A program made the translations under genes and the position numbers. Shown here one piece after another: positions 1 to 4,930 of a stretch of 20,000 nt of DNA. Every line of letters begins with the position of its first letter. The stretch's first letter is position 1. The stretch lies in the IMG/VR virus record IMGVR_UViG_3300032167_000116, positions 45,785-65,784 of that record. One strand, written 5' to 3'. This DNA comes from an uncultured virus (IMG/VR IMGVR_UViG_3300032167_000116) (lineage: Duplodnaviria > Heunggongvirae > Uroviricota > Caudoviricetes). The notes under the pieces were generated by a model. That model ran no database searches. It saw nothing but the letters and a program-made list of their open reading frames with translations, and was not told where the DNA came from.

Positions 1-648
1 AACACCTGCATTCACTGCATCATCACCCATGATCAGGCCCAATTCGTGTGCTCTGTCTGTCAATTCAACAATGCCTTCTGCACCGTTGTTCAACATCGGC
101 ATCATTTCAGATCCGGATCGGCCAAGAAGTCCATTTGCAAGTGCTGCTTTTTCTGTGCCATTTTCCATTGCAGCAAGTGCCATTGTCACTTCCTTGAACA
201 TATCTTCCTGATTCTTCATTTTTCCTGTGGAATCGTAGATGCTAACACCTAACGCTTCGAACATTTCAACACTCTTTTCAGTTCCGCTTGCTGCTCCGTC
301 CATTTGTGCAACAAGCGTTTTCATACCCATCTGAAGACTGTTGACATCCATTCCATTCTGCCCCAATACATAGGACCATTCCTGATATGCCTGTTTTGAC
401 ATACCGATCTTTGCAGACATCTTGTCGATTTCATCCGCTGTTGATGCAGACGAAGAAACCACACCCATCAGTGCCGCACCTGCTGCTGCCGTTCCGGTGA
501 CAACCGCTGTTCCAAACTTCGCTGCCGTTGCCGCCCCTTTCTTCAAGGATTCCGCAAAATTGCCTGCCTTTTTCGATGTGGCTTCTATGTTCTCGTTTGC
601 TTCTTCGTTATCAATAGCAATCTTTCCGAAGATCTTAAAAAGTTCCAT
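1..648 (-). CDS. Second tape-measure-like protein (N-terminal 216 codons; runs off the window; not in ORF track)
   Basis: Manual translation from ATG at 648 (RBS AGAAGGGGGTGA) is open to position 1: MELFKIFGKIAIDNEEANENIEATSKKAGNFAESLKKGAATAAKFGTAVVTGTAAAGAALMGVVSSSASTADEIDKMSAKIGMSKQAYQEWSYVLGQNG...LLGRSGSEMMPMLNNGAEGIVELTDRAHELGLIM. It is Ala/Gly-rich and helical, with TMP-type segments (ADEIDKMSAKIG, LLGRSGSEMMPML). Confidence 0.85.
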   Translation of the reverse strand, partial: MELFKIFGKIAIDNEEANENIEATSKKAGNFAESLKKGAATAAKFGTAVVTGTAAAGAALMGVVSSSASTADEIDKMSAKIGMSKQAYQEWSYVLGQNGMDVNSLQMGMKTLVAQMDGAASGTEKSVEMFEALGVSIYDSTGKMKNQEDMFKEVTMALAAMENGTEKAALANGLLGRSGSEMMPMLNNGAEGIVELTDRAHELGLIMGDDAVNAGV

Positions 649-685
649 AAGGGATTCACCCCCTTCTTTTGTTCTTTATCGTGGT

Positions 686-2593
686 TTATACGTTCCCACG
701 CATTTTTCTGTTTGATAATATACCCAATTCCTGATCAATCCTTGGTGCCAATCTGCTGACCAAGGCATTCCCATCAAGAACGATGTTCGAATCCTTTTCT
801 GCAAGCTGTGGCATGTATTCTGCCAATATTGACATGATCCTTTGCATGTAATAGATGACAGGTTCATTCTCTGCTTTCACAGCTTCCCTGACGAACACAA
901 GAAGTGTGTCAATAGGTGTGATTGCTTCTGCTCCTGCTTCGCCAAACCCTTGCCATCCTGCAAGTGTTGGAAGCACTGTCGGCCTGTCAAATATTCCACC
1001 CTTTGCATTCCACTTGACAGAAAACTTTGGAACACCGGGGATGTCAAGAAGTTCCGCAGCCTTTGCAAGAATTGCAGGCTTCTTTGACCATGACACACTG
1101 ATTGAAGGCATTTTGATTGCTTTGAACTTCAGATCAATGTTGAAGAATCCCTTTATCTTTTTGATGGCATTGTCCACTGTGTTCCGTGCTGATTCGATTT
1201 TTTCTTTGATTGTTGAATAGATTGATCCGAAGACTTCAACAACCTTGTTCTTTGCAGAAACTATTGGATCAATCAGGCCCGATTTCAGCAATTGGAAAGC
1301 TGAAACAGCCTTGTCCTTTGCTGATTGCACCTTTTCAGAAATTGTGTTCCGGATGTTGTTGAAAATATCCGTTGCCTTCTGTTTCATGGATTCGAATTTC
1401 TCTTTCATGCTGTTGTACATTTCAGTGAATTTTGTTTTCAGTATGGAAGCAGCCTTTGAACATGCATCTTGTATCTTCTCCCATAGATTGATCCAAAACT
1501 GTCTGAATGGTTCAACATTGTTCCATAAATAGATAAAGGCAACCACAAGGCCTGCAAGAAGTGCCACGATGATTCCGATTGGATTGGCCATAAGTGCCGC
1601 ATTGAATAAAAGGATCGCATTTCTGACCGTGCTGATTGCTTTTGCAGCTGCTGTCATAATGGTTCCCCAATTCATAATCAAAAGAAAGATTCCGATGGAT
1701 GTTGCTGCACCAAGAATGACTGCAACCCATGTATGAATTGTGTTTTCATTCTCTTTGATCCAATTGATTGCATCCTTGAACTTGTCAATAAGTTCCTGGA
1801 TCTTTGGTGCTGCTGCCGCAACCATGTCCGCAATCTTATTTTTGATTTTAGTCACGATTGGTTCAAATACCGCACCAAGTTCTGCAAAGGCATCAGAAAG
1901 CTTTTCCTGTGCCTTCCTTGCATCCATCACATCCTTGTTTGTTTCCTTGTACTGATCCGCTGCTTTGCCGTATGTATCACGCAAGGTGTTCATGATCAGG
2001 TCCTGTCTTTCTTCCTCTGTTGAACACTCCGCAAGCTGTGCATTGAAGTCATCAACGGTTATTCCGGACCATTCGAGTGCATCGGCCAAGGACGATTGCA
2101 CCTCTCCTAAAGAACTGCTGTGGTTGATGGCTTCTGCCAACCCCTCCAACGGCAATGATGCCCCGAAAGTCGAATACACTCCTGTCAAGGTGTTTGTCAT
2201 GTCATTCAGTTCTTCTTCGTTATCAGCAACCAATGCAAGGTGCTGTGCAGCTTCAACAGCCGCACCGGAATCACCCATGACTGCATTCAGATCAGAATAG
2301 GTGTTTTTGGCCACTTCAGAACTGTGGCCTGCTGTCTTATAGGCAGATTCAAGCAATCCCATTTCCTGCCTATATTCTCTTGTACTTTCTGTGACTGCAA
2401 GGATGGATCCACCAATGGCCAATCCTGCACCTGCAATCAACTTGCCTGCTGACACAACGGCCCTTCCAATTCCACCGAAAGCACTGTTGATGGTTCCCTG
2501 TGAATTGTTCGCCCTTTCTGCTGTGTCATCAATGGCATGGTTCGCTTCAGTGTTGTCAATGGCAATGCTGCCAAACAATCTGAACAGTTCCAT
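686..2593 (-). CDS. Tail tape measure protein (635 aa)
   Basis: Directly follows the tail chaperones. Helical and Ala-rich, with a hydrophobic ANPIGIIVALLAGLVVAFIYLW segment, periodic aromatic residues, and TMP-type C-terminal motifs (WNAKGGIF...GEAGAEAITP; IVLDGNALVSRLAPRIDQELG). Confidence 0.9.
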   Translation of the reverse strand: MELFRLFGSIAIDNTEANHAIDDTAERANNSQGTINSAFGGIGRAVVSAGKLIAGAGLAIGGSILAVTESTREYRQEMGLLESAYKTAGHSSEVAKNTYSDLNAVMGDSGAAVEAAQHLALVADNEEELNDMTNTLTGVYSTFGASLPLEGLAEAINHSSSLGEVQSSLADALEWSGITVDDFNAQLAECSTEEERQDLIMNTLRDTYGKAADQYKETNKDVMDARKAQEKLSDAFAELGAVFEPIVTKIKNKIADMVAAAAPKIQELIDKFKDAINWIKENENTIHTWVAVILGAATSIGIFLLIMNWGTIMTAAAKAISTVRNAILLFNAALMANPIGIIVALLAGLVVAFIYLWNNVEPFRQFWINLWEKIQDACSKAASILKTKFTEMYNSMKEKFESMKQKATDIFNNIRNTISEKVQSAKDKAVSAFQLLKSGLIDPIVSAKNKVVEVFGSIYSTIKEKIESARNTVDNAIKKIKGFFNIDLKFKAIKMPSISVSWSKKPAILAKAAELLDIPGVPKFSVKWNAKGGIFDRPTVLPTLAGWQGFGEAGAEAITPIDTLLVFVREAVKAENEPVIYYMQRIMSILAEYMPQLAEKDSNIVLDGNALVSRLAPRIDQELGILSNRKMRGNV

Positions 2594-2605: not shown

Positions 2606-2926
2606 CTATTTTGGGGAAAATCTCTGCAAGATTCCCCTTGATTGCTGTTTGGTTTCTTCCACCTGTTCATCTGTCATTGATAAGGTTGTCGGTTGTTCCT
2701 TCTGCTTCTGCCACAACCCGGCCTTCCATTCGCTGAAAGGCATGTCAGACATACTGTGAACGTAAGCAATCCAAAGTTTGTTGTCATCCTCTTTTTCCGC
2801 TTCTTCTTTTTTGCGCTCATTTTCAAGATTGATTATTTGGTTCACAAACTCCCCAAACCGCCCTTGTTCGATGTACAATCTCATGAAGTCCATTGGACTT
2901 GCGTATCTTGAAAACAGCAAGTCCAT
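2606..2926 (-). CDS. Tail assembly chaperone, downstream (gpT-like) part, probably expressed as a -1 frameshift fusion
   Basis: Lies between the gpG-like gene and the TMP. Its frame stays open upstream to the T TTT TTC slippery site at 2968-2974. Confidence 0.8.
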   Translation of the reverse strand: MDLLFSRYASPMDFMRLYIEQGRFGEFVNQIINLENERKKEEAEKEDDNKLWIAYVHSMSDMPFSEWKAGLWQKQKEQPTTLSMTDEQVEETKQQSRGILQRFSPK

Positions 2927-2943
2927 GAACTCAATCTCACCTA

Positions 2944-3345
2944 TTAAAGCAATTTGAAGACAACCTTGAAAAAAGATGTGTTCTTCACCTCATTGAAAGA
3001 ATCATAGATCATCAACGGCAGTGTGCCGAACTCCATCTTCTTGATCTCGTCAACCGGGATCCCGGACATATCCGACCAAAAAGAATAGATGTCCTCACCC
3101 ACCGGACCGCATAACTTGGAAATCACGATGTCAGCAATGTCAAGCACAACCATCTTCCCGACTTCATCAATGGTCATTCCCTTCGCTTCCTGCTTGAAGG
3201 TGTCCTTGAACTCCTTCAGGCCAAGCTTGCGGAAAAGCTGCAACAACGGCATCAAATCACCATCATTCAGCTTCCGCAATGTATACGGTCTTTCAATCAC
3301 TGCTTCTTCCTGCTTCGTATTATCTTCAATAATTGCTTTACTCAT
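2944..3345 (-). CDS. Tail assembly chaperone (gpG-like)
   Basis: 133 aa immediately downstream of the major tail gene. It ends ...NTSFFKVVFKLL, with a slippery heptamer near the 3' end. Confidence 0.8.
   Translation of the reverse strand: MSKAIIEDNTKQEEAVIERPYTLRKLNDGDLMPLLQLFRKLGLKEFKDTFKQEAKGMTIDEVGKMVVLDIADIVISKLCGPVGEDIYSFWSDMSGIPVDEIKKMEFGTLPLMIYDSFNEVKNTSFFKVVFKLL
2968..2974 (-). other. -1 programmed ribosomal frameshift site T TTT TTC
   Basis: X XXY YYZ heptamer in the correct phase (TCT TTT TTC). The -1 frame reads ...QGCLQIALIGEIEF-MDLLFSRY..., in frame with 2606..2926. Confidence 0.85.
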
Positions 3346-3363: not shown

Positions 3364-4116
3364 TTACGCTGTGGCCTTTTCCGGGTAGAAAATATAGATC
3401 GGTAAGGTGTCAAATACATCACCCTTGAAGTCAGCAGAACATTCAAAGGTTGCCTTCAACACTGCCGTTTCCTTGTTCTTCGGCTCAACCTCAAAACCGG
3501 AAGTGCAAAGTGCATTTTCCATGATGATGATCACTTCCGTTCCGTCCGTCATGTTTCCGACAAATGCGATATTGTCAAGATAGTCGGACAGTTCAAGAAG
3601 CGGTTTGGTGATGATCTGCGTGTATCCCTTGATAAGAGAATCCACTTCCTTGCCGACAATTGCCCTCTTGAAACTCTCCACAGTATGCTGTGCAAGGTTC
3701 GTTTCAAGGCTGCCTGCTTCACCCATCTTCAAGGTCAATCCCTTGACCTTTACAGTCGCACCATCGACATCAACATCCGTAAATTCGGAAACGATGGAAC
3801 ACTTGTTGCCACCGGATGTTGCACCAAGGACATTTTCTTCAGAATCATCCCATTCACCGATGACAAAATCACCTGCCTTCGGCACATAATCTGCGGCAAC
3901 TCCAATGAAGGAAACATCCGGTGTCAGCTTGCTGATCCGAATCGTGTCAGTGCCTTCTTCCTCGGTGTCTGCGATAACCTTCAGGGAACCCTTCGGCTGC
4001 TCTCCACCATCTTCCACCGTGACTTTGTTGTACACATACTTCAAATTCTTGAATACCGTGCCTGCTCCAAGTAAGAAATCATCCGGAGTCTTGCTGTTAA
4101 TTCCCGATTTTCTCAT
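3364..4116 (-). CDS. Major tail (tube) protein
   Basis: Position between tail-completion gene and chaperones; motifs LLGAGTVFK, LGATSGG, DVDGATVKVKGL, IIMENALCTSG. Start moved to ATG 4116 (GGAG RBS; ATGA overlap with the upstream stop). Confidence 0.85.
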   Translation of the reverse strand: MRKSGINSKTPDDFLLGAGTVFKNLKYVYNKVTVEDGGEQPKGSLKVIADTEEEGTDTIRISKLTPDVSFIGVAADYVPKAGDFVIGEWDDSEENVLGATSGGNKCSIVSEFTDVDVDGATVKVKGLTLKMGEAGSLETNLAQHTVESFKRAIVGKEVDSLIKGYTQIITKPLLELSDYLDNIAFVGNMTDGTEVIIIMENALCTSGFEVEPKNKETAVLKATFECSADFKGDVFDTLPIYIFYPEKATA

Positions 4117-4505
4117 TTTTTCACGCTCCATTCTTTCAAATCTAAGTTGATTTGGATTCTTTTCAGGGAACCTTCACCTGTTGGAACAGGGAATGCATTC
4201 CCATAAAAAACAGCAATCCCATTTCCATTCGGAAGGATTGCTGTTCTGCCCCCAATTGCAGGGAATAATTGTTCAATTGTTGCTTTCTGCTTTTCAAGAT
4301 CCAACCATGATCCTTTTCCGGTTCCGGTCAGGATGAATTGTGCTTCCTGCTTTCCATCTTCTGCACCGGGTGTCACTTCTGAATAAGATCCAACCCAATA
4401 TGCAGGAATGGAAGAAACATCAGAAGTGAATTCCATAAATTCATACGGAATCCCGGCTGAATCCATTGCATCTTTTATGAATCCCAAAGCTGCCGTTGTC
4501 ATCAT
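4113..4505 (-). CDS. Putative tail completion/terminator protein
   Basis: 130 aa between the gp10-like and major tail genes; PAYWVG motif and beta-rich C-terminus. Confidence 0.65.
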   Translation of the reverse strand: MMTTAALGFIKDAMDSAGIPYEFMEFTSDVSSIPAYWVGSYSEVTPGAEDGKQEAQFILTGTGKGSWLDLEKQKATIEQLFPAIGGRTAILPNGNGIAVFYGNAFPVPTGEGSLKRIQINLDLKEWSVKK

Positions 4506-4930
4506 TCACCATTCCCTTCTTCCATTCGTGCCTTCAGAACTTCCATTGCCCTTCTGATGATTGCATTCTTCAAGGTGTTGAATGCATTCTGCAATGCCCG
4601 GTTTGGTGTTTTACCGTATGTGTGATGGAATTCCCCGGTCTTTTCATCCCGGTACACCCAACCGCCTTTTCTACCATCACCCTTCAAGGCATATTCACCT
4701 GTTCCGAATTCTTCCCATATAGCATTCTGAAGTGGTGATCCGATCACTGCTTCCAATTTCGATTCATCGACTTTGTAGGTCCATGAATTCTTCAATTGTC
4801 CGGTTCCAACCCTTGAATTGTTTGCTGTCTGTGAAGCAAGTGATTCTGCCGATTCAAACAGATAGGCAATTGCAGCCTGATTCATTTCTTCCCTAACTCT
4901 CATTGAATTATCTTCAAAATGAACAGCCAT
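4502..4930 (-). CDS. HK97 gp10-family neck/tail component
   Basis: Motifs VGTGQLKNSW, NAIWEEFGTG and TYGKTPNRALQNAF match this family; gene order agrees. Confidence 0.85.
   Translation of the reverse strand: MAVHFEDNSMRVREEMNQAAIAYLFESAESLASQTANNSRVGTGQLKNSWTYKVDESKLEAVIGSPLQNAIWEEFGTGEYALKGDGRKGGWVYRDEKTGEFHHTYGKTPNRALQNAFNTLKNAIIRRAMEVLKARMEEGNGE

What the first reader, a model, noticed from the sequence alone, without database searches (positions are those of the whole stretch)
1..2593. Two tandem tape-measure-like genes with a shared N-terminal cap but different cores
Seen: a complete 635-aa TMP is followed 37 bp later, with no terminator and its own RBS, by a second TMP-like ORF (648 to beyond 1) that the ORF track missed. 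The N-termini match at 14/18 residues (MELFRLFGSIAIDNTEAN vs MELFKIFGKIAIDNEEAN) despite many synonymous DNA differences. The cores look unrelated (ESTREYRQEM...SLPLEGLAEA vs TADEIDKMSAKIG...QEWSY). Established: siphoviruses normally have one TMP, followed by Dit/Tal, and it sets tail length at about 0.15 nm per residue. Inference: both proteins keep the same docking end, which suggests a heteromeric tape measure, two alternative tail lengths or virion types, or a split between ruler and ejection-channel roles. I cannot tell whether this arrangement is already described in related phages.
Basis: partly seen in the sequence, partly recalled or inferred. Interest (0 to 1): 0.8.

Follow-up and report, generated by a model that had tools for sequence, protein, structure and literature searches.

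The report
Gut phages with two tail rulers
This phage of gut bacteria carries two complete tail-ruler (tape measure) genes side by side, each apparently matched to its own set of tail-tip genes, so one genome may build two kinds of tail; many uncultured relatives share the arrangement, and I found no description of it.

Summary
Window 686-2593 (-) encodes a 635-aa tape measure protein (TMP1). After a 37-nt spacer, a second TMP gene (TMP2) starts at 648 and runs off the window; the full gene is 704 aa. The first 18 residues match at 14 of 18. The cores are not unrelated: the two proteins are full-length paralogs (25% identity, E 9e-36), and each has the N-terminal cap, a hydrophobic core and the C-terminal TMP motif. 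Both are under purifying selection.

The pair is neither a chimera nor a one-off. It recurs in the second phage on the same record and in 33 non-redundant loci.

Loci with two TMPs almost always carry two Dit/hub (Tal) sets, in the nested order TMP1-[TMP2-set 1]-[Dit2-Tal2-DUF859]. Single-TMP relatives have one set. Each TMP's C-terminal tail tracks the class of tip set. In pairs, TMP2's tail matches the adjacent set and TMP1's matches the distal, conserved set.

Best reading (about 0.5): there are two alternative tail-tip initiator complexes. They share the tube, chaperones and neck, and the cap is the shared docking end. This would yield two virion types. The main rival is one composite tail. 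Four literature searches found no report of this arrangement.

The parts
686..2593 (-). TMP1, a complete tape measure gene (635 aa). Its C-terminal tail is of the 'LDxGxLVG...RGN' class.
   Evidence: ORF. PHROG TMP families. Orthologs at 44-47% identity in phage A and MT835521. dN/dS 0.07-0.08 against the 96%-identical copies in L010/L011.
1..648 (-). TMP2, the first 216 codons of a second complete tape measure gene (704 aa in all, G000 44318-46432).
   Evidence: PF10145 PhageMin_Tail hit below the gathering cut-off (27.3 bits against 33.2). dN/dS 0.08 against the 86%-identical ortholog in L068.
2540..2593 (-). N-terminal cap of TMP1 (MELFRLFGSIAIDNTEAN).
595..648 (-). N-terminal cap of TMP2 (MELFKIFGKIAIDNEEAN).
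649..685 (-). 37-nt spacer between the TMP genes. It holds an AAGGGGGTG ribosome-binding-like run and has no terminator-like site on the coding strand.
2606..2926 (-). T part of the tail assembly chaperone. Its frame is open from 2989, in the -1 frame relative to G.
   Evidence: Homologs precede TMP1 in related loci.
2944..3345 (-). G tail assembly chaperone (133 aa). A T_TTT_TTC slippery heptamer lies at 2968-2974.
3364..4131 (-). Major tail (tube) protein, the only one in the module.
   Evidence: phrog_885 at 2e-47.
4502..4930 (-). Candidate tail completion protein (HK97 gp10-like, 142 aa) and inferred docking partner of both caps.
   Evidence: phrog_5 'tail completion or Neck1' at 2e-11. 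PF04883 at 26.2 bits against a 21.4 cut-off. The partner role is inferred from phage 80alpha.

Best explanation
Both ORFs are genuine, full-length, paralogous tape measure proteins. The phage also encodes two complete tail-tip sets downstream, outside the window.

Set 1 lies next to TMP2: a tube-fold DUF6711 protein, a 684-aa gp27/Tal-type hub, and fibre and CBM5_12 proteins. Set 2 lies further on: Dit2, a Prophage_tail-type Tal2 and DUF859.

I propose that TMP2 plus set 1, and TMP1 plus set 2, form two alternative tail-initiator complexes. Both are extended by the same tube protein with the same G/GT chaperones, then closed and joined to heads by the same neck proteins. The conserved N-terminal cap is the end that both rulers must present to the shared head-proximal partner, most likely the single HK97 gp10-like tail completion protein. 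The divergent C-terminal tails fit their own hub.

The result would be two virion types from one genome, with different receptor-binding tips and somewhat different tail lengths. At the textbook 0.15 nm per residue, the lengths would be roughly 95 and 106 nm here.

What is shown: the anatomy, the paralogy, selection on both genes, conservation of the pair, the co-occurrence with two tip sets, and the link between C-tail and tip class. What is inferred: the pairing of each TMP with a set, the role of the cap, and the existence of two particle types.
For: (1) Full-length paralogy and selection. TMP1 and TMP2 align over nearly their whole lengths (E 9e-36) and share both cap and C-terminal block. 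dN/dS is 0.07-0.13 for TMP1 and 0.08 for TMP2.

(2) The pair is conserved. It occurs in phage A of the same record (669 + 761 aa) and in MT835521.1. It was auto-scored in 52 of 80 fetched viral loci that hold the cap and found in 12 of 80 prophage loci. That makes 33 non-redundant pairs.

(3) Two TMPs go with two tip sets. Of 10 paired prophage loci with enough downstream DNA, 9 have two sets. Five have two Pfam Prophage_tail hubs (L140, 141, 145, 146, 150). L143, L148 and L149 combine a Gp37-type or DUF6711-type set with a Prophage_tail set. In L142 the adjacent set is unassigned and precedes the Prophage_tail set. Phages A and B and MT835521 also have two sets. All 7 closest single-TMP loci have one set.

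(4) In the window's own phage, set 1 is a real Dit/hub pair by fold. DUF6711 (pLDDT 84.5) matches tail-tube, initiator and Dit chains. The N-terminal 450 aa of the 684-aa protein (pLDDT 77.5) match Mu gp44/MuSo2, Listeria gp18, 80alpha Tal and T4 gp27 hubs, with E down to 8e-13.

(5) The TMP C-tail tracks the tip class. Among TMPs directly followed by a tip set, all 12 with an 'LDxGxLVG' tail precede a Dit2/Tal2-type set, and all 8 with an 'SPKALSRLEIY' tail precede an SPP1_Dit/Gp37-type set, with no crossovers. In pairs, TMP2's tail matches the adjacent set. A2, B2 and the L149 TMP2 share the 'G(I/M)F...FA' tail and all precede DUF6711. TMP1 has the LDxGxLVG tail in 9 of 11 pairs whatever lies next to TMP2.

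(6) Each system works alone elsewhere. TMP1-type singles are followed directly by Dit-Tal-DUF859 (L155, L183). TMP2-type singles also exist (L023, L025, L037, L070).

(7) Cassette swapping. L011 has a TMP1 96% identical to this one but a TMP2 only 63% identical.

(8) The cap is far better kept than the body: 10.9 of 18 residues against about 27% identity, as means over 33 pairs. Capped TMPs occur in loci with the same tube, chaperone and neck backbone.

(9) In phage 80alpha, TMP residues 1-37 dock by a beta-strand onto the monomeric tail completion protein, and the TMP C-terminal helices bind Tal (preprint 10.1101/2024.12.10.627806; passages read).
Against: - No particle data exist. Nothing shows that both TMPs, or both hubs, are in virions, or that they sit in different virions.
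- L147 has two TMPs but only one visible Dit/Tal set before lysis-like genes.
- In six paired loci both sets are of the same Sipho_tail/Prophage_tail class, so tail class does not tell the pairing there.
- My tail regexes left 45 of 69 tip-adjacent TMPs unclassified.
- Related loci are not independent samples, because they share ancestry.
- Two Dit-type proteins can sit in one tail (Nocturne116, T5; PMC13595954), so two Dit genes alone do not require two tails.
- All genes lie in one apparent operon with no switch that I could see. If two tail types are made, they are made together.
- No cultured host or phage with the pair was found.
Confidence: 0.5

Rival explanations
1. One composite tail. 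Both tip sets, and perhaps both TMPs, are built into the same particle. This could be two stacked Dit-type rings with a second hub-based appendage, or set 1 forming an accessory receptor-binding structure on a tail whose core tip is Dit2-Tal2-DUF859.
For: Phages with several Dit-type proteins in one tail are known: a mixed ring in Nocturne116 and two rings in others (PMC13595954, passages read). All the genes sit in one co-oriented block with no terminator signal above chance.
Against: - A TMP fills the tube lumen, so a second complete TMP has no obvious place in an accessory appendage.
- The two TMPs differ in length by -21 to +628 residues among 14 complete pairs. That fits poorly with two rulers lying in parallel in one tube.
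- Two gp27-type hubs each close a tube end.
- Each TMP-plus-set combination is sufficient on its own in related phages.
Confidence: 0.2
2. Only one system is in use and the other is a spare. The nested arrangement would be a long-lived recombination intermediate or a reservoir of tip cassettes, or the two systems would be used under different conditions through regulation not visible in the DNA.
For: The TMP2-plus-set-1 cassette is swapped between close relatives (L011) and is of at least four types. The TMP1-TMP2 junction holds inserted genes in some relatives (L140 and MT835521). L147 has lost one set, and in L085 TMP2 is broken into two ORFs.
Against: Both TMPs are under strong purifying selection. 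Both sets are intact in 9 of 10 informative paired loci plus phages A and B and MT835521. No invertase, promoter or terminator signal separates the systems.
Confidence: 0.15
3. One of the two TMP-like proteins is not a ruler. It would have another role, such as an ejected pilot or channel protein or an assembly factor, as in the reader's 'ruler versus ejection channel' idea. Alternatively, the two form a mixed trimer or act end to end as one long ruler.
For: Relatives with the same cap have one TMP of 958 to over 1014 aa (L015, L033, L041, L063, L066, L090), so longer rulers exist in the clade. TMP1 is much better conserved than TMP2 (57% mean column identity among 10 orthologs).
Against: - Both proteins have the cap, a hydrophobic core and the C-terminal block. 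They are duplicates, not the two halves of one ruler.
- Each type serves alone as the only TMP elsewhere.
- TMP1's C-terminal tail is of the class that goes with Dit/Tal sets. It is a tip-binding end, not a linker.
- The spacer varies from 27 to 1310 nt and can hold other genes, so read-through fusion is not conserved.
Confidence: 0.1
4. Artefact: an assembly chimera or a decaying duplicate.
For: The record is an odd concatenation of two related phage genomes, and public-run contigs break near the repeated cap.
Against: The junction is identical in contigs of three separate metagenome data sets, and a 93% variant exists. A contig of an independent run bridges it. The gene is intact at 704 aa and under purifying selection.
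Confidence: 0.02

Closest known systems
Canonical Gram-positive siphophage tail initiator: one TMP followed by Dit and Tal (SPP1, TP901-1, 80alpha). 80alpha was read here (preprint 10.1101/2024.12.10.627806); the others are recalled.
   Same: The gene order MTP, G/GT chaperones, TMP, Dit, Tal is the same. The TMP N-terminus is a strand-plus-helix motif at the head-proximal end, and the TMP C-terminus is associated with the hub. The tube-fold Dit and gp27-fold hub are also the same.
   Different: Here the TMP, the Dit-like protein and the hub are each present twice, nested as TMP1-[TMP2-Dit1-Tal1...]-[Dit2-Tal2-DUF859]. The tube, chaperones and neck are present once.
Single-TMP relatives with related TMPs: Enterococcus phage AE4_2/EFP1 (TMP 1049 aa, then two 'distal tail protein' genes), Phage nd12 (977 aa), and prophages L155 and L183.
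   Same: The TMP bodies are homologous. The tip-set types are the same as set 1 or set 2 here.
   Different: They have one TMP and one tip set.
Phages that make two virion types by switching tail fibres, such as P1 S/S' (preprint 10.1101/2022.07.24.501295, abstract seen in the listing) and the Mu G segment (recalled).
   Same: One genome would yield particles with two receptor specificities.
   Different: Those phages invert a DNA segment and swap only fibre tips on one tail design. Here no invertase is seen, and the whole initiator (ruler, Dit, hub, fibres) is duplicated and apparently co-expressed.
Tails with two distal tail proteins: Nocturne116 DTP1/DTP2, and T5-like phages with two rings (PMC13595954, passages read).
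   Same: There is more than one Dit-type gene per genome, including a minimal tube-fold Dit of about 120 aa, like DUF6711.
   Different: Those phages have one TMP and one hub, and both Dit proteins sit in one tail.
Split or frameshifted single TMP, seen here in L196 and L206 (435 + 583 aa).
   Same: There are two adjacent ORFs with TMP similarity.
   Different: In L196 and L206 the first ORF lacks the C-terminal block and the second lacks an N-terminal cap, so they are the two halves of one ruler. In the window each ORF is a complete TMP.

Membership tests
Tape measure protein (TMP): TMP1, window 686-2593 | Profile similarity to TMP families | tested here: met
   phrog_58 at 3e-42 and phrog_991 at 1e-30, plus more than 20 further PHROG TMP families. 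tblastn hits to annotated TMPs of Lactococcus, Geobacillus and Clostridium phages.
Tape measure protein (TMP): TMP1, window 686-2593 | Position directly after the G/GT chaperone genes, downstream of the tube gene | tested here: met
   MTP at 3364-4131, G at 2944-3345, T at 2606-2926 with a -1 overlap and a T_TTT_TTC site, and TMP1 starting at 2593.
Tape measure protein (TMP): TMP2, window 1-648 plus G000 44318-45784 | Profile similarity to TMP families over its whole length | tested here: met
   phrog_8462 at 1.5e-33 (residues 40-634), phrog_58 at 3e-32 and phrog_9483 at 2e-31. The PF10145 PhageMin_Tail hit is below the gathering score (27.3 against 33.2 bits).
Tape measure protein (TMP): TMP2 | Followed directly by a Dit-type and a hub (Tal)-type gene | tested here: met
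   DUF6711 has a tube-type fold. The N-terminus of the 684-aa protein has a gp27/Mu gp44/Tal fold, E 8e-13.
Tape measure protein (both) | Protein length sets tail length; the protein lies in the tube lumen as a trimer | not testable with these tools
   This needs virions, electron microscopy and deletion or insertion mutants.
Tape measure protein (both) | The N-terminal strand docks on the tail completion protein, as in 80alpha | tested here: inconclusive
   A motif of the right kind and a gp10-like protein are present. Binding is not shown.
One ruler split into two genes | The two ORFs correspond to the consecutive N- and C-terminal parts of one TMP | tested here: not met
   Both ORFs align end to end with each other, and each has both the cap and the C-terminal AKGG..GAEA..P block. 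True split forms look different (L196, L206).
Distal tail protein (Dit): DUF6711 protein, G000 43925-44305 | Tail-tube-like beta-sandwich with a flanking helix, encoded between TMP and hub | tested here: met
   The model has pLDDT 84.5. Foldseek gives tube, initiator and Dit chains (monocin, Mu baseplate 115-aa chain, T1 and lambda tip chains, SPP1 Dit), with prob ~1 but modest E (2e-3 to 4e-2) and TM ~0.5. There is no sequence-profile link to Sipho_tail Dits.
Tal / gp27-like baseplate hub: 684-aa protein, G000 41874-43928 | gp27 / Mu gp44-type hub fold at the N-terminus | tested here: met
   58 PDB chains at E <= 1e-3. The top hits are MuSo2 43-kDa tail protein at 8e-13, Mu gp44, Listeria gp18, 80alpha Tal and T4 gp27.
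Invertible or switchable host-range cassette (Mu Gin, P1 Cin type) | A site-specific invertase and inverted repeats flanking alternative genes | tested here: not met
   The ORF list shows no recombinase gene in the tail module. The only serine recombinase on the record is the integrase-like gene at G000 32303-33736. Inverted repeats were not searched for.

The most novel reading that the evidence does not exclude
A large clade of temperate siphophages of gut Clostridia builds two different tails from one genome. The inner TMP2-plus-tip cassette is exchangeable. The arrangement would therefore be a modular, constitutive way to widen or hedge host range, distinct from invertible fibres, DGRs and multi-fibre baseplates.
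Probability: 0.45. Interest if true: 0.85.

Novelty: new variant of a known kind. Interest (0 to 1): 0.72.

Why it matters
Tail assembly in long-tailed phages is taught as one ruler, one initiator, one tail. A common, selected arrangement with two complete rulers and two Dit/hub sets would do several things if the two-tail reading holds.

- It would show that one head-and-tube chassis can be shared by two adsorption machines. That would be a new route to dual host range in gut phages.
- It would offer a natural experiment on which ends of a TMP talk to which partners: the N-terminal cap to the neck, and the C-terminal tail to the hub.
- It would matter for host prediction and for annotating gut viromes, where a second TMP and a second tip set are easily taken for errors or chimeras.

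If the composite-tail rival is right instead, the tip architecture would still be of a kind not yet seen in solved siphophage structures.

Tried and rejected
- Complex prediction of the gp10-like tail completion protein with three copies of the TMP2 N-terminus. It gave no verdict (median score 0.19, mark 0.32) and is evidence neither way.
- hhalign of a 3-sequence DUF6711 alignment against an 11-sequence Dit alignment found nothing (prob 0.1). PDB sequence searches with DUF6711 and the 684-aa protein gave only chance-level hits. The fold searches then resolved both proteins.
- Four literature searches for two or duplicated TMP genes, or for two tail or tip modules. They returned only chaperone pairs, TMP repeat evolution, two Dit proteins in Nocturne116, two sets of tail fibres and unrelated papers. 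The passages I checked were not about this arrangement. The library lacks most subscription journals, so a description elsewhere cannot be excluded.
- The annotated phages inspected all have one TMP: AE4_2, nd12, Gardnerella vB_Gva_AB1, and NatCom Ruminococcus and Dorea phages. The 'two places' in some records lie within one long gene.
- The promoter/terminator scan of the tail region found nothing above shuffles. The one terminator-like hairpin in the spacer lies on the non-coding strand.
- Tandem Repeats Finder found no DNA repeat in TMP2, although the protein shows a repeated stretch of about 44 aa.
- RNA evidence is inconclusive. A contig from a metatranscriptome library covers all of a TMP1 relative and part of TMP2 (X9), but DNA carry-over cannot be excluded. 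The raw-read RNA run X21 gave only 8 partly fitting reads, which is no evidence.
- Run labels: 20 of the 24 listed runs hold part of the stretch, none holds half of the sampled words, and only four were laid. I draw no habitat claim beyond the labels 'gut/feces metagenomes' on those rows.
- Read-through or frameshift fusion of TMP1 and TMP2 was rejected. The two genes are in different frames, and the spacer ranges from 27 to 1310 nt and sometimes contains genes.
- The script counts crudely. By my reading, L028, L039 and L048 are also pairs, and L085 has a broken TMP2. Several loci are two views of one contig (L044/L045, L046/L047, L053/L054, L075/L076). The non-redundant count of 33 is therefore the number to use.
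Full report
**Observation**

The window is the last 20 kb (45785-65784) of a 65,784-bp virus record. On the minus strand, a 635-aa ORF (window 686-2593, here TMP1) ends in TAA. A 37-nt spacer follows, holding an AAGGGGGTG ribosome-binding-like run. Then a second ORF starts at 648 and is still open at base 1.

In the whole record this second ORF is intact: 704 aa, G000 44318-46432, here TMP2. The first 18 residues match at 14 of 18. The 54 nucleotides differ at 16 positions, with 7 synonymous and 4 non-synonymous codon changes. The match is therefore maintained at the protein level and is not recent gene conversion.

Both proteins hit many PHROG tape-measure families. TMP1 sits where a TMP should. 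It lies after the tube gene (phrog_885, 2e-47) and after a G/T chaperone pair, whose T frame overlaps G in the -1 frame at a T_TTT_TTC heptamer at 2968-2974.

BLASTP aligns residues 1-599 of TMP1 with 1-672 of TMP2 at 25% identity, E 9e-36. A four-way alignment shows that both keep the cap, a hydrophobic middle and the C-terminal block KGFF..IKMP..AKGG..GEAGAEA..P. They are complete paralogs.

**Not an artefact**

The 241-nt stretch across the junction is identical in contigs of three separate metagenome data sets. It is 93% identical in contigs of two metagenome data sets (L010 and L011; L011 shares a contig with L013). A contig of a public DNA run bridges it (X1 record 5).

Both genes are under purifying selection:
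- TMP1 has dN/dS 0.07-0.08 against 96%-identical copies.
- The phage-A TMP1 ortholog (A1) has dN/dS 0.13 against its 91%-identical copy in L068.
- TMP2 has dN/dS 0.08 against an 86%-identical ortholog.

**The pair is a family trait**

The record holds two related phage genomes in a row. Phage A runs from 1 to about 34 kb and ends with a serine recombinase. Phage B runs from 35.7 to 65.8 kb.

Phage A has its own pair: 669 aa, 44% identical to TMP1, and 761 aa, 24% identical to TMP2 overall but with nearly the same last 26 residues. A third phage, MT835521.1, has a 578-aa TMP1 ortholog (47% identity) followed by a capped 674-aa TMP2-type gene.

In the 80 loci fetched, every hit starts a TMP-like ORF, and 52 of the 80 were auto-scored as tandem pairs. 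A few more pairs were missed by my ORF caller.

A scan of one genome per species with a TMP1 alignment returned 80 prophage loci, mostly gut Clostridia MAGs. Twelve of them have the capped pair.

After removing near-duplicates there are 33 pairs. In these, the paralogs share on average 10.9 of the 18 cap residues, against about 27% identity in the rest.

**What lies downstream**

TMP2 of phage B is followed by these genes:
- a 126-aa DUF6711 protein
- a 684-aa protein
- four small fibre and CBM5_12 proteins
- a Dit (phrog_33, 8e-17)
- a Prophage_tail-type Tal (529 aa)
- a DUF859 protein

Folding shows what the first two are. DUF6711 (pLDDT 84.5) has the tail-tube/Dit-type sandwich. Its best Foldseek matches are tube, initiator and Dit chains, with modest E-values of 2e-3 to 4e-2. 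The N-terminal 450 residues of the 684-aa protein (pLDDT 77.5) have the gp27/Mu gp44/Tal hub fold, with E down to 8e-13 and 58 chains at E <= 1e-3. So the window's phage encodes two rulers, two Dit-type proteins and two hubs. It encodes only one tube protein, one chaperone pair and one neck.

**Two TMPs go with two tip sets**

Ten paired prophage loci have enough downstream DNA to judge, and 9 of them have two sets:
- L140, L141, L145, L146 and L150 each have two Pfam Prophage_tail hubs.
- L143 and L148 have a Gp37-type set plus Dit2-Prophage_tail.
- L149 has DUF6711 plus a 755-aa homolog of the hub, then Dit2-Tal2-DUF859.
- L142 has an unassigned set, then Dit2-Tal2-DUF859.

L147 is the exception, with one visible set and then lysis-like genes. 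L144 and L153 end too early to judge.

MT835521 has SPP1_Dit plus Sipho_Gp37, and further on a second Dit-like gene and a Tal. All 7 closest single-TMP loci (L151, L152, L154, L155, L171, L183, L188) have one set.

The order is always nested: TMP1-[TMP2-set 1]-[Dit2-Tal2-DUF859]. TMP1 and set 2 are conserved. TMP2 and set 1 vary, with at least four types.

**The two ends of the ruler**

The C-terminal tail of a TMP tracks the tip class. Among TMPs that directly precede a tip set:
- All 12 with an 'LDxGxLVG' tail precede a Dit2/Tal2-type set.
- All 8 with an 'SPKALSRLEIY' tail precede an SPP1_Dit/Gp37-type set.
- 'REFARL' tails go with a third set.
- 'G(I/M)F...FA' tails go with DUF6711.
- My regexes left 45 of the 69 unclassified.

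In pairs, TMP2's tail matches the set next to it. TMP1 carries the LDxGxLVG tail in 9 of 11 pairs, whatever lies next to TMP2. That is the tail class that fits set 2.

Single phages L155 and L183 have a TMP1-type gene followed directly by Dit-Tal-DUF859. TMP2-type genes also occur alone (L023, L025, L037, L070). L011 has a 96%-identical TMP1 but a 63%-identical TMP2, so the inner cassette is exchanged.

Capped TMPs occur in loci with the same tube, chaperone and gp10-like backbone.

In phage 80alpha, TMP residues 1-37 add a strand to the hairpin of the single tail completion protein in the neck. The authors equate that protein with HK97 gp10. The TMP C-terminal helices bind Tal (preprint 10.1101/2024.12.10.627806, passages read). 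The window encodes an HK97-gp10-like protein at 4502-4930.

**Explanation and rivals**

The simplest account is that an ancestral TMP1-Dit2-Tal2-DUF859 phage acquired, between TMP1 and Dit2, a cassette made of a second ruler and its own tip set. The two initiators now share chaperones, tube and neck. This explains why both rulers keep the same N-terminal cap while their C-terminal tails differ. Two virion types with different tips would result. I put this at about 0.5.

The pairing of each TMP with a set and the role of the cap are inferences. Particle composition is unknown.

The rivals are:
- One composite tail (0.2). Two Dit-type proteins can share a tail (PMC13595954). However, a second full ruler, a second hub and length differences of -21 to +628 residues fit poorly.
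- A spare or conditionally used cassette (0.15).
- A non-ruler, mixed-trimer or end-to-end role (0.1).
- An artefact (0.02).

**Comparison and novelty**

All the parts are of known kinds (TMP, Dit, Tal hub, G/GT chaperones, gp10-like protein). The doubled, nested initiator is not something I could find described. Four full-text searches and the passages read gave nothing on two TMP genes or two tip modules. Every annotated phage record I opened has one TMP. The library lacks most subscription journals, so this is not proof of absence.

It is a lead, not independent support.

I file this as a new variant of a known kind. Interest is high because the arrangement is common, selected and directly testable by proteomics and electron microscopy.

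Noticed in passing
G000 1-34000 and 35700-65784 (the window is 45785-65784): The 65.8-kb 'virus record' is two related siphophage genomes in tandem. Phage A is cut at its Tal gene at the record start. It ends with a repressor-like HTH gene and a large serine recombinase (G000 32303-33736). A 374-aa protein with Endonuclease_NS_2 and Ada Zn-binding domains (34210-35334) lies between the two phages. The completeness estimate of 100% is probably inflated by this doubling.
   Followed up: partly
window 2968-2974 (-): A canonical -1 slippery heptamer T_TTT_TTC lies near the end of the G chaperone gene. The T frame is open from 2989, so a G-T fusion by programmed frameshift is likely.
   Followed up: partly
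window 649-665: The spacer between the two TMP genes can form a 5-bp hairpin (AAGGG...CCCTT) that includes the ribosome-binding run of TMP2. The scan flagged it only as a terminator-like site on the opposite strand. A role in tuning TMP2 translation is possible but untested.
   Followed up: no
L007 4991-5773; L140 11792-12990; L145, L146 and L147 between TMP1 and TMP2: In some relatives the TMP1-TMP2 junction holds extra DNA. MT835521 has an opposite-strand ORF with a signal-peptide-like start. L140 has two small ORFs. Three other loci have gaps of 500-750 nt. This is a module boundary that accepts insertions.
   Followed up: no
G000 about 44.9-45.2 kb (TMP2 residues about 431-518, outside the window): TMP2 contains two nearly identical consecutive stretches of about 44 aa (KIEENGGGIKGYFKTMTDSAKQ...). 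This is the kind of internal duplication by which rulers change length. Tandem Repeats Finder saw nothing at the DNA level.
   Followed up: partly
L145 12261-15884: In one paired prophage, TMP2 is 1207 aa against 582 aa for TMP1. This is the most extreme length mismatch found and the best candidate for an electron-microscopy test.
   Followed up: no
L196 and L206: In two loci a single uncapped TMP is split into two ORFs (435/436 aa, then 583/316 aa). The first lacks the C-terminal block and the second lacks an N-terminal motif. This is a true split or frameshift and a different thing from the pair studied here.
   Followed up: no
L085 4801-6040: One viral contig has its TMP2 broken into two ORFs (143 aa and more than 296 aa). 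This is either a decaying copy or a sequencing error.
   Followed up: no
L148 18526-19200: Some relatives carry a peptidoglycan hydrolase (Peptidase_M15 with a PG_binding_1 domain) between set 1 and set 2, just before Dit2.
   Followed up: no
L141, L142, L145, L150, L156, L158, L189 and others: Several prophage-bearing contigs sit in MAGs labelled Alphaproteobacteria, Prevotella, Bacteroidales or Akkermansia, although the phage backbone is typical of Clostridia. These contigs are probably mis-binned.
   Followed up: no
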